From assembly GCA_964016885.1 (NCBI GenBank), contig OZ024743.1:274908001-274972000 (forward strand): a stretch of DNA of 64,000 nucleotides. The letters are read 5' to 3'. How positions within the stretch are numbered: position 1 is the stretch's first letter; every line of letters begins with the position of its first letter. Shown piece by piece: positions 59,722-61,520 of this stretch. Source of the stretch: Eledone cirrhosa. Its lineage: Eukaryota. The translations under genes and the position numbers were made by a program. The notes below the pieces were generated by a model that was not told where the DNA came from, did not search any database, and saw only the letters and a list, made by a program, of their open reading frames with translations.

Positions 59722-60460
59722 CCCTCTTCCTGCTATATCAATCGTTAACCTAATATATACCTTCCATATACCGAATGTGTTGTTATTTCTGTTTACCTTT
59801 TACATACATATACATATATATGTGAATATATATATATATATATATATATATATATATATATATATATATATATATATATATATATGTGTGTGTGTGAATA
59901 TATATATATATACAGTATATATGTGCGTGTGTGTATATATATATGTGTGAGTGCATATATATATATATATATACAAACATATATATATATACAAATATAT
60001 ATATGCAAATGTATATATATATATGTATATATAATATATCTCCATTGATTATATATATATATATATCCTAGACCTCCAGTAGACAATTAATGAGGAGCCC
60101 CTCCACCCTTCTTGCTTTCTTCGTATTCCCACTGCATTTTAAGTTACCTTAAATAGCAACTACACAGCCATTTCTATTCTCCATATATATATATAATTTA
60201 TATATGTATATATACATTATATATATATATATATATAGAGAGAGAGAGAGAGAGAGGGAGAGAGAGAGAGAGAGATAATTTAATATATCTACTAACATAA
60301 GCGCACACAGATGTACGCCAATGCCAGCAAATACACAGGTTATGTCATAGTACCTAGGTGGTTCAATGCAGGAGGATGCAGAACAATAATATAAAAAACG
60401 TAAAATAAGAAAATTTTTAAAAAAATTTTTAAAAATTAACTTACTTACTAAAATTTTCAG

Positions 60461-60539
60461 TCCAACTAATTAGTTTCTGCAATGGGATAAAGACAGTTAC
60501 GTAATGAACTGTTGAGAATTTCATTGCGTCATCAGGGAG
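60461..60539 (-). ncRNA. Type I hammerhead ribozyme
   Basis: ctcc-CTGATGA-cgcaatg...cattgca-GAAA-ctaattag-TT-gga on the minus strand. Confidence 0.7.
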
Positions 60540-61218
60540 GTCTATTCTCAGCCAAGTCTCCAGGCAATGCGCGGACACTGGGGACTCATATAAAAATAAT
60601 AATAATTCGGTAAATGGAACAGCTATCGGGGACTGGATTCCAAGTACTGAAATCCTCGCTGCCACAGGTCAAATGGCCGATTCTAAAGAATCAATCACGT
60701 GACACTGAGGCTAGTCGGTAGGAGTGGGATGGTAAGATGACAGACGCCTACTAACACACCAAAAATTTAGTAGTGGTTTTGGCAGGTTTGCTCGACAAAT
60801 CAGTGATTTGGAGATAAATATAGATAATTTAATATATCTACTAACATAAGCGCACAGATGTACGCCAATGCCAGCAAATACACAGGTTATGTCATAGTAC
60901 CTAGGTGGTTCAATGCAGGAGGATATTAAATTATCTATATTTATCTCCAAATCACTGATTTGTCGAGCAAACCTGCCAAAACCACTACTAAATGTTTGGT
61001 GTGTTAGTAGGCGTCTGTCATCTTACCATCCCACTCCTACCGACTAGCCTCAGTGTCACGTGATTGATTCTTTAGAATCGGCCATTTGACCTGTGGCAGC
61101 GAGGATTTCAGTACTTGAAATCCAGTCCTCGATAGATGTTCCATTTACCGAATTATTATTATTTTTATATGAGTCCCCACTGTCCGCGCATTGCCTGGAG
61201 ACTTGGCTGAGAATAGAC

Positions 61219-61298
61219 CTCCCTGATGACGCAATGAAATTCTCAACAGTTCATTACGTAACTGTCTTTATCCCATTGCAGAAACTAATTAGATGGAG
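61219..61298 (+). ncRNA. Hammerhead ribozyme with mutated cleavage triplet
   Basis: As above but GAAA-ctaattag-AT-ggag (U16.1 changed to A). Confidence 0.55.
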
Positions 61299-61520
61299 TG
61301 AAAATTTTAGTAAGTAAGTTAATTTTTTAAAAATTTTTTTTAAATTTTCTTATTTTACGTTTTTTATATATATATATATATATATATATATATATATATA
61401 TATATATATATATATATATATATATATATATATATATATATATATATATATATATATATATATATATATATTATACGATATTAAACAAATGGAAACTATA
61501 TTTATAAAACCATATTTATT

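What the first reader, a model, noticed from the sequence alone, without database searches (positions are those of the whole stretch)
60274..61365. Same 557-bp family with a different start point and terminal redundancy
Seen: this locus holds one full unit on the minus strand whose ~100-bp redundancy (60274-60378 = 60823-60924) is a different part of the unit than the redundancy at 18917-19662, then flips to a plus-strand partial unit. Inference: differing permutations are expected from reverse transcription of a circular or multimeric RNA, not from a fixed LTR.
Basis: partly seen in the sequence, partly recalled or inferred. Interest (0 to 1): 0.75.

Follow-up and report, generated by a model that had tools for sequence, protein, structure and literature searches.

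The report
Two-start Penelope-type hammerhead retrozyme insertion
This is one of many hundreds of copies of a 550-base non-coding repeat whose copies stop at just two fixed sites and begin anywhere; it carries a predicted self-cutting RNA fold and was likely pasted into TA repeats by the enzyme of a Penelope-type jumping gene, probably from a circular or multi-unit RNA.

Summary
Among 202 arms at 115 genomic loci, 179 end (3') at one of two fixed unit sites 122 nt apart (S1, S2), running into (TA)n; 5' ends are scattered. Of 65 head-to-head pairs, 54 have one S1 and one S2 arm, as here. This matches the tandem/inverted 'tail' footprint of Penelope-like elements (PLEs), so each redundancy is a fixed start plus a random truncation. 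The unit is not the end of a longer coding element: arms run unit after unit. Each unit holds a type I hammerhead fold with an oversized, covarying stem II. Arms cross its predicted cut site without scars, and units within one insertion are far more alike (1.4%) than between insertions (5.2%). A circular template fits best, but partly cut linear multimers are not excluded. Extra details: a similar bulged hairpin follows both start sites, and (TC)n runs occur at 24 of 96 S2 ends but 0 of 81 S1 ends, suggesting stuttering at initiation. No helper element was identified and there are no RNA data. Verdict: a non-LTR retrozyme variant with a PLE footprint.

The parts
60273..60924 (-). Arm 1: 5'-truncated at unit about 202-205, 1.18 units long, 3' end at fixed site S2 (unit about 304-312)
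60923..61365 (+). Arm 2: inverted, 5'-truncated at unit 291, 3' end at fixed site S1 (unit about 186-190); 2-nt overlap with arm 1
60459..60541 (-). Predicted type I hammerhead with oversized stem II (core from 60535, GAAA from 60477, predicted cut after 60464); one stem I pair is broken in this copy
61217..61299 (+). Second copy of the hammerhead (core from 61223, GAAA from 61281); the conserved U before the cut site is changed in this copy
60361..60384 (-). Hairpin with a 2-nt 3' bulge just downstream of S1 (candidate start signal)
60791..60813 (-). Hairpin with a 2-nt 3' bulge just downstream of the internal S2 site (also at 60945-60967 on +)
60234..60272 (-). (TC)n run, in element sense, between the S2 end and the (TA)n flank; not part of the internal unit
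61365..61471 (.). (TA)n run directly after the S1 end
18917..19666 (+). Second family member in the window: single arm, 5' at unit 555/1, 3' at S1, in (TA)n, two hammerhead folds

Best explanation
This is a two-armed insertion of a 550-base non-coding repeat with two fixed 3' ends, likely a hammerhead retrozyme copied into a TA repeat by a Penelope-like element's endonuclease and reverse transcriptase, probably from a circular RNA monomer. Shown: two fixed 3' ends in (TA)n, scattered 5' ends, S1+S2 head-to-head pairs, multi-unit arms, a covarying hammerhead fold, seamless junctions, near-identical units within an insertion, and long PLE open frames in the genome. Inferred steps: (1) tandem copies are transcribed, self-cut between unit 111 and 112, and the monomer is ligated into a circle; (2) a PLE protein, perhaps a dimer, binds at two bulged hairpins and cuts both strands of a (TA)n target; (3) each DNA 3' end pairs with an AUAU stretch at S1 or S2 and primes copying, sometimes stuttering at S2; (4) each copy runs a random distance, often more than one round; (5) the two cDNAs are joined head to head through a few shared bases, or a lone cDNA is joined to the TA flank.
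For: Ends: 87 S1 + 92 S2 of 202 arms; 54 of 65 inverted pairs are S1+S2 and the script called none S1+S1 or S2+S2. Other AT-rich unit sites are not used as ends (0 of 124, 1 of 150 and 0 of 111). The same two ends hold in relatives at about 70-90% identity. This layout is described for PLEs (PMC8557442 passages; two internal RT starts bounding the 'tail' and both strands cut and extended in PMC11167929, parts 1-2 of 4). Ribozyme fold: 90.3% of cells paired, 57 two-sided changes, 0 of 500 shuffles; one stem II pair is UA 16 / CG 11 / AU 8 with none unpaired. Template longer than a cut monomer: 81 of 96 arms cross the cut site and 30 cross it twice or more; 202 of 219 junctions are identical and 1 has a length change. 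One monomer per insertion: divergence 1.4% within insertions (89 pairs), 1.1% between arms (35 pairs), 5.2% between loci; 8 private variants are shared by all passes on both arms at 5 loci; 48 haplotypes among 71 loci. The sense circle folds at z -5.4 against -2.0 for antisense (25 shuffles).
Against: No RNA evidence of expression, cleavage or circles. A few arms start at the predicted cut site (5 within unit 108-112 among the sampled loci; 6 of 105 in 107-117, uncorrected p 0.018), several after already crossing one intact site. That suits partly cut linear multimers, though the genome-wide excess is slight (11 loci against 6 and 8 at control sites). One arm (L033) switches subfamily midway. 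One pair (L075) reads S2+S2. Eight duplicated copies on C28 share one 5' end but hold 1.5-5.5 units, so unit number also changes at DNA level after insertion. No helper shares sequence or the hairpin at its ends among 70 PLE loci. The fold is non-canonical: a C-A mismatch closes stem II and the site is GUU. Covarying cells reflect only a few subfamily events.
Confidence: 0.62

Rival explanations
1. Same PLE-driven, two-start insertion, but the template is a linear uncut or partly cut multimer transcribed from tandem source loci; no circle is needed.
For: Arms that begin at the cut site after crossing one intact site (L068, L069, L175, L218, L219, L221). PMC11167929 reports that uncut RNA is the dominant substrate in vitro. 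C28 shows that arrays of up to 5.5 units can grow at DNA level. Li et al. (10.64898/2026.07.22.740005, part 3) found cleavage in 1 of 9 retrozyme dimers tested.
Against: Private variants shared by every pass on both arms and 48 haplotypes among 71 loci need repeated single-monomer bottlenecks. By my estimate, 5 of about 184 arrivals at the cut site stop there. The core and stems are conserved down to about 70% identity.
Confidence: 0.28
2. The unit is the pseudo-LTR or 3' end of a longer coding PLE, and the copies are its 5'-truncated fragments.
For: The end pattern is identical to that of PLEs. A 77% relative lies 1.9 kb downstream of a PLE reading frame in L128.
Against: No arm or 39 leaves the unit at a common point into shared unique sequence; going 5', arms wrap into the next unit. 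The L128 neighbour is separated by that PLE's own terminal repeat and a long TA run. The longest ATG-started frame is 29 codons. An origin from an ancient pLTR is not excluded.
Confidence: 0.05
3. DNA-level satellite or duplication, or assembly artefact, with the inversion caused by replication errors.
For: The C28 cluster shows DNA-level tandem change. No listed contig piece bridged this locus's flip.
Against: Dispersed copies on many contigs with polarity-specific fixed ends, the S1+S2 rule and RNA covariation. The arms of this locus differ at 8 sites, so they are not a read fold-back.
Confidence: 0.03
4. Endogenised viroid-like RNA replicon with ribozymes on both strands.
For: The unit is 550 nt, non-coding and strongly self-paired (66% paired as a circle).
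Against: Only one CUGANGA per unit, on the sense strand. No Rfam family reaches its gathering score. All arms have the same polarity relative to their fixed ends. The fold is branched, not rod-like.
Confidence: 0.02

Closest known systems
Metazoan non-LTR retrozymes (Cervera & de la Pena 2020, PMC7229834: part 2 of 6, Discussion and passages read; Li, Clavereau & Pollet 2026, 10.64898/2026.07.22.740005: parts 1-3 of 5 read)
   Same: Non-coding, low-GC tandem units with one type I hammerhead each, no LTR/PBS/PPT layout, many dispersed copies, PLEs in the same genome. Both papers propose PLEs as the helper.
   Different: The unit is larger than the 170-400 nt invertebrate circles reported (within the 51-972 bp range of Li et al.). 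Stem II is about 55 nt with a C-A closing mismatch and a palindromic stem III. The two fixed ends, head-to-head arms and (TA)n targeting are not described in the parts read. Circles and cleavage were shown there but are untested here.
Penelope-like elements: insertion structure (Craig et al. 2021, PMC8557442, passages only; Frangieh et al. 2024, PMC11167929, parts 1-2 of 4)
   Same: 5' truncation, partial tandems, an inverted 5'-truncated copy, a 'tail' at one end only, two internal RT starts, (TA)n targets as in Naiad and Hydra clades.
   Different: No ORF. The tail is 122 nt rather than 30-40 nt. Each end has a short AUAU match to the target, whereas PAc started at a site without homology. 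Craig et al. list 'HHR_half_core' Naiads with core halves 35-50 nt apart in a supplement I did not open; it may bear on the long stem II.
Non-autonomous Chlamys elements such as MRC1 (PMC8557442, passage)
   Same: Non-coding PLE dependants with multicopy head-to-tail insertions.
   Different: Those resemble their autonomous partner at the 3' end and mostly lack hammerheads; no sequence-similar partner was found here.

Membership tests
Non-LTR retrozyme | Type I hammerhead in each repeat unit | tested here: met
   Core, stems I-III and covariation in 35 sequences; non-canonical, and not found by Rfam
Non-LTR retrozyme | Head-to-tail tandem, non-coding, no LTR layout | tested here: met
   30 of 96 arms hold two or more ribozyme sites; longest ATG frame 29 codons
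Non-LTR retrozyme | Self-cleavage | not testable with these tools
   Only a weak hint: a small excess of 5' ends at the predicted site
Non-LTR retrozyme | Expressed as linear and circular monomers | not testable with these tools
   Only contig runs, none on record as RNA
Non-LTR retrozyme | Target-site duplication | tested here: inconclusive
   Flanks are (TA)n on both sides
PLE-mobilised element | Two fixed 3' ends (tail at one end), variable 5' ends, inverted 5' copy | tested here: met
   179 of 202 arms; 54 of 65 pairs
PLE-mobilised element | Microsatellite target | tested here: met
   Set A motif count: 47 of 56 non-continuing S1 sites and 52 of 59 non-continuing S2 sites run into a dinucleotide repeat
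PLE-mobilised element | Autonomous partner sharing the 3' signal | tested here: inconclusive
   Young RT + GIY-YIG families with long open frames exist; none among 70 loci shares sequence or end hairpins; most PLE families were not sampled
Autonomous PLE | RT and GIY-YIG ORF within the element | tested here: not met
Viroid-like RNA | Ribozymes in both polarities, rod-like fold | tested here: not met
   One sense-strand hammerhead core, branched fold; ribozyme classes outside Rfam were not tested

The most novel reading that the evidence does not exclude
A PLE protein dimer docks on twin bulged hairpins of one self-ligated RNA circle and copies it from both ends of a break in (TA)n, one subunit per start site. 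At S2 it first stutters, telomerase-like, adding (GA)n before it elongates. The family would then record both rolling-circle target-primed reverse transcription and the birth of compound microsatellites by a telomerase-related enzyme.
Probability: 0.3. Interest if true: 0.75.

Novelty: new variant of a known kind. Interest (0 to 1): 0.5.

Why it matters
How animal retrozymes get back into genomes has been proposed (PLE enzymes, circular template) but is not shown in the papers read. This family gives exact, testable coordinates: two start sites, a candidate hairpin signal, a predicted cut site and a one-S1-one-S2 rule. It could be used in the existing in vitro PLE assay. The S2-only (TC)n runs suggest a route by which such enzymes could seed microsatellites. 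Its interest is tempered because earlier unchecked notes in this scan describe the same two-armed pattern for several other families in this genome.

Tried and rejected
Type III hammerhead reading (core plus the GAAA 6 nt downstream): rejected, because that GAAA is not conserved in relatives whereas the one 55 nt downstream is. Rfam: no family at gathering score; the miRNA hits are the inverted repeat and TA runs. RNA-editing scars: no A>G among 21 shared private variants, and 10 A>G against 21 T>C among 152 unshared. Helper search: no similarity of the unit to 40 GIY-YIG loci except two independent superfamily copies, nor to 30 loci of a young 905-aa family whose own two ends lie about 44 nt apart; the hairpin descriptor did not hit at their ends. 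A long-hairpin core in L110 belonged to a separate fixed-length 568-bp repeat. Sequencing runs: no RNA holder listed; four contig runs hold the family but cannot show ends, and no listed piece spans the locus. The bacterial promoter scan was at chance level and does not apply to this genome. Literature: 5 searches; 'retrozyme + octopus' listed 2 papers, neither on this by title or abstract; the search on reiterative dinucleotide synthesis by Penelope found 0.

Full report
Observation. Unit coordinates refer to the real copy at window 18920-19662 (period 557). The finding consists of a minus-strand arm 60924->60273 (unit 202 through 557 to about 304-312) and a plus-strand arm 60923-61365 (unit 291 through 557 to about 190), joined head to head with a 2-nt overlap. 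The 105-column redundancy is 98% identical. The arms differ at 8 of 444 columns. Both outer ends run into dinucleotide repeats.

Family size and sampling. The genome is 3.0 Gb. A 27-mer of the narrow family has 808 exact matches, a 28-mer near S2 has 1,005 and a 25-mer shared with relatives has 8,625; these count units, not insertions. I analysed 115 loci. Set A: 62 loci from the first 100 matches (all on C1). Set B: 39 loci from the first 100 matches (all on C1). Set C: 13 best full-unit hits plus this locus. Dropped before counting: 9 duplicates in A and B, and 17 of L001-L030 (16 windows on the C28 cluster, 1 duplicate).

Ends. Of 202 arms, 87 end at S1 (unit about 190) and 92 at S2 (about 312); 23 were called 'other', many of them split alignments or diverged fragments. 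In set A the 5' ends of 105 arms fill 43 of 56 ten-base bins. Of 65 head-to-head pairs, 54 are S1+S2 and 11 involve an 'other' end. Five of those 11 read S1+S2 (L022, L062, L071, L084, L091) and L075 reads S2+S2. Three other unit sites, two of them AT-rich, are almost never ends. Relatives at about 70-90% identity use the same two ends. So each redundancy equals arm length minus one unit, fixed at its 3' side.

What this pattern is. Craig et al. (PMC8557442, passages) describe PLE insertions as 5'-truncated partial tandems with an adjacent inverted copy, a 30-40 bp tail often at one end only, and (TA)n targets for Naiad and Hydra. Frangieh et al. (PMC11167929, parts 1-2 of 4) show that a PLE protein cuts and extends both strands and starts at two internal RNA sites that bound the tail. 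The family fits this with a 122-nt tail. It is not itself coding, and arms wrap into the next unit rather than into a shared body.

Ribozyme. Each unit has stem I, CUGAUGA, a C-A mismatch, a stem II of about 55 nt, GAAA, a palindromic stem III and a GUU site, with the cut predicted between unit 111 and 112. I aligned 35 sequences: 33 of 44 clustered representatives of 108 distinct copies (11 truncated, chimeric or near-duplicate ones dropped), plus both copies of this locus. Of the cells, 90.3% pair, 57 show two-sided changes (0 of 500 shuffles; slid controls 32-45% paired), and the outer stem II is 97% paired with three covarying pairs. These cells reflect a few subfamily events, the structure was derived from these same sequences, and the inner helix is misaligned for some rows. 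Both copies at this locus carry a damaging change.

Template. A cut linear monomer could give arms of at most 79 nt (S1) or 201 nt (S2). In set A, 81 of 96 arms are longer and 30 cross two or more sites. Junctions are seamless: 202 of 219 are identical and 1 has a length change. Passes within an insertion diverge by 1.4% on average (six loci with two insertions left out) against 5.2% between loci. They agree on a common minor allele at 326 sites. Of 73 disagreements, 56 come from five loci with neighbouring insertions or a chimera. Eight private variants are shared by all passes on both arms (L093 four; L028, L068, L080, L147 one each), against 152 single-pass private variants; 7 of the 21 shared calls come from a duplicated locus. 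This points to repeated copying of one monomer, which a circle explains most simply. Against it: some arms start at the predicted cut site after crossing one intact site (the walk misread L066 and possibly L216), although the genome-wide excess is small (11 against 6 and 8 loci); L033 switches subfamily mid-arm; and eight C28 duplicates with one 5' end hold 1.5-5.5 units. I put the circle at about 0.62 and the linear multimer at about 0.28.

Start signal and stutter. A hairpin with a 2-nt bulge on its 3' strand lies a few bases downstream of both S1 and S2. Its stems are nearly invariant while the loops vary, so there is no covariation support. A descriptor written after seeing both hairpins hits only these two places in the unit, none on the antisense strand, and once in 4 of 400 shuffles; being post hoc, this is weak. 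(TC)4 or longer follows 24 of 96 S2 ends and 0 of 81 S1 ends, against 2 of 140 TA runs in the window. None of 117 internal S2 sites has more than two TC units, and the opposite flank shows a nearby (GA)n in only 2 of 18 two-armed cases. Synthesis by slippage at initiation is my preferred reading; later slippage beside the TA run, or a preference for compound targets, is not excluded.

Helper. GIY-YIG gives 10,595 first-look candidates, 150 scored. One young RT + GIY-YIG family (Pfam) has many 900-905 aa open frames at 94-96% identity, two ends about 44 nt apart and (TA)n flanks. Others have a CxxxxCxxC linker. The labels Hydra-like and Neptune-like are my reading of motifs against Craig et al., not a phylogeny. 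None of 70 loci shares sequence with the unit other than independent superfamily copies, so the helper remains unidentified. I could not confirm the earlier notes' claim of a Hydra partner.

Comparison and verdict. It works like a metazoan non-LTR retrozyme (PMC7229834; 10.64898/2026.07.22.740005) and meets the sequence criteria; cleavage and circles are untested. Both papers propose PLE mobilisation. The parts I read do not describe fixed twin ends or two-armed insertions; their supplements and those of Craig et al. were not opened and may bear on this. Earlier AI notes in this scan report the same pattern for other families and possibly this superfamily; they are not independent support. New variant of a known kind; interest 0.5.

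Noticed in passing
window 61716-62271 and 62434-63115: Inverted pair of 3' terminal repeats of a coding PLE family (85-91% identical to the region downstream of the 844-aa frame in L122), next to the finding but a separate element; an older copy lies at 39856-40590.
   Followed up: partly
window 59680-59730: Minimal type I hammerhead core (CUGAUGA from 59690) in a short fragment between TA runs, probably the 3' end of another PLE-type family.
   Followed up: no
window 30183 (-), 30302 (+), 38340 (+): Three copies of another hammerhead (CUGAAGA core), two of them head to head; the same motif follows a GIY-YIG-like frame in L110, whose family also seems to have two ends about 60 nt apart.
   Followed up: partly
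window 46627-49398: LINE-type reading frame (Exo_endo_phos, then RVT_1) interrupted by one stop.
   Followed up: partly
L142-L144 (G000 C28 45.835-45.856 Mb): Eight tandem segmental duplicates of one insertion, all with the same 5' end but 1.5 to 5.5 units, showing DNA-level gain and loss of units.
   Followed up: partly
L033:700-1580: One arm is a chimera of two subfamilies, switching near unit 470-500: template switch or later recombination.
   Followed up: partly
L185-L214: Young PLE family with many open 900-905 aa frames, frequent head-to-head pairs and a 44-nt tail; a good source of enzyme for an in vitro assay.
   Followed up: partly
L110:2112-2680, L226-L250: Abundant fixed-length repeat of about 568 bp (39 other scored copies at 96-98%) with a long internal hairpin after a CUGAAGA motif; not characterised.
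   Followed up: no
unit position 120 (L058, L063, L068, L080, L095): The same A-to-C change occurs in single passes at several loci, 8 nt downstream of the predicted cut site; unexplained hotspot.
   Followed up: no
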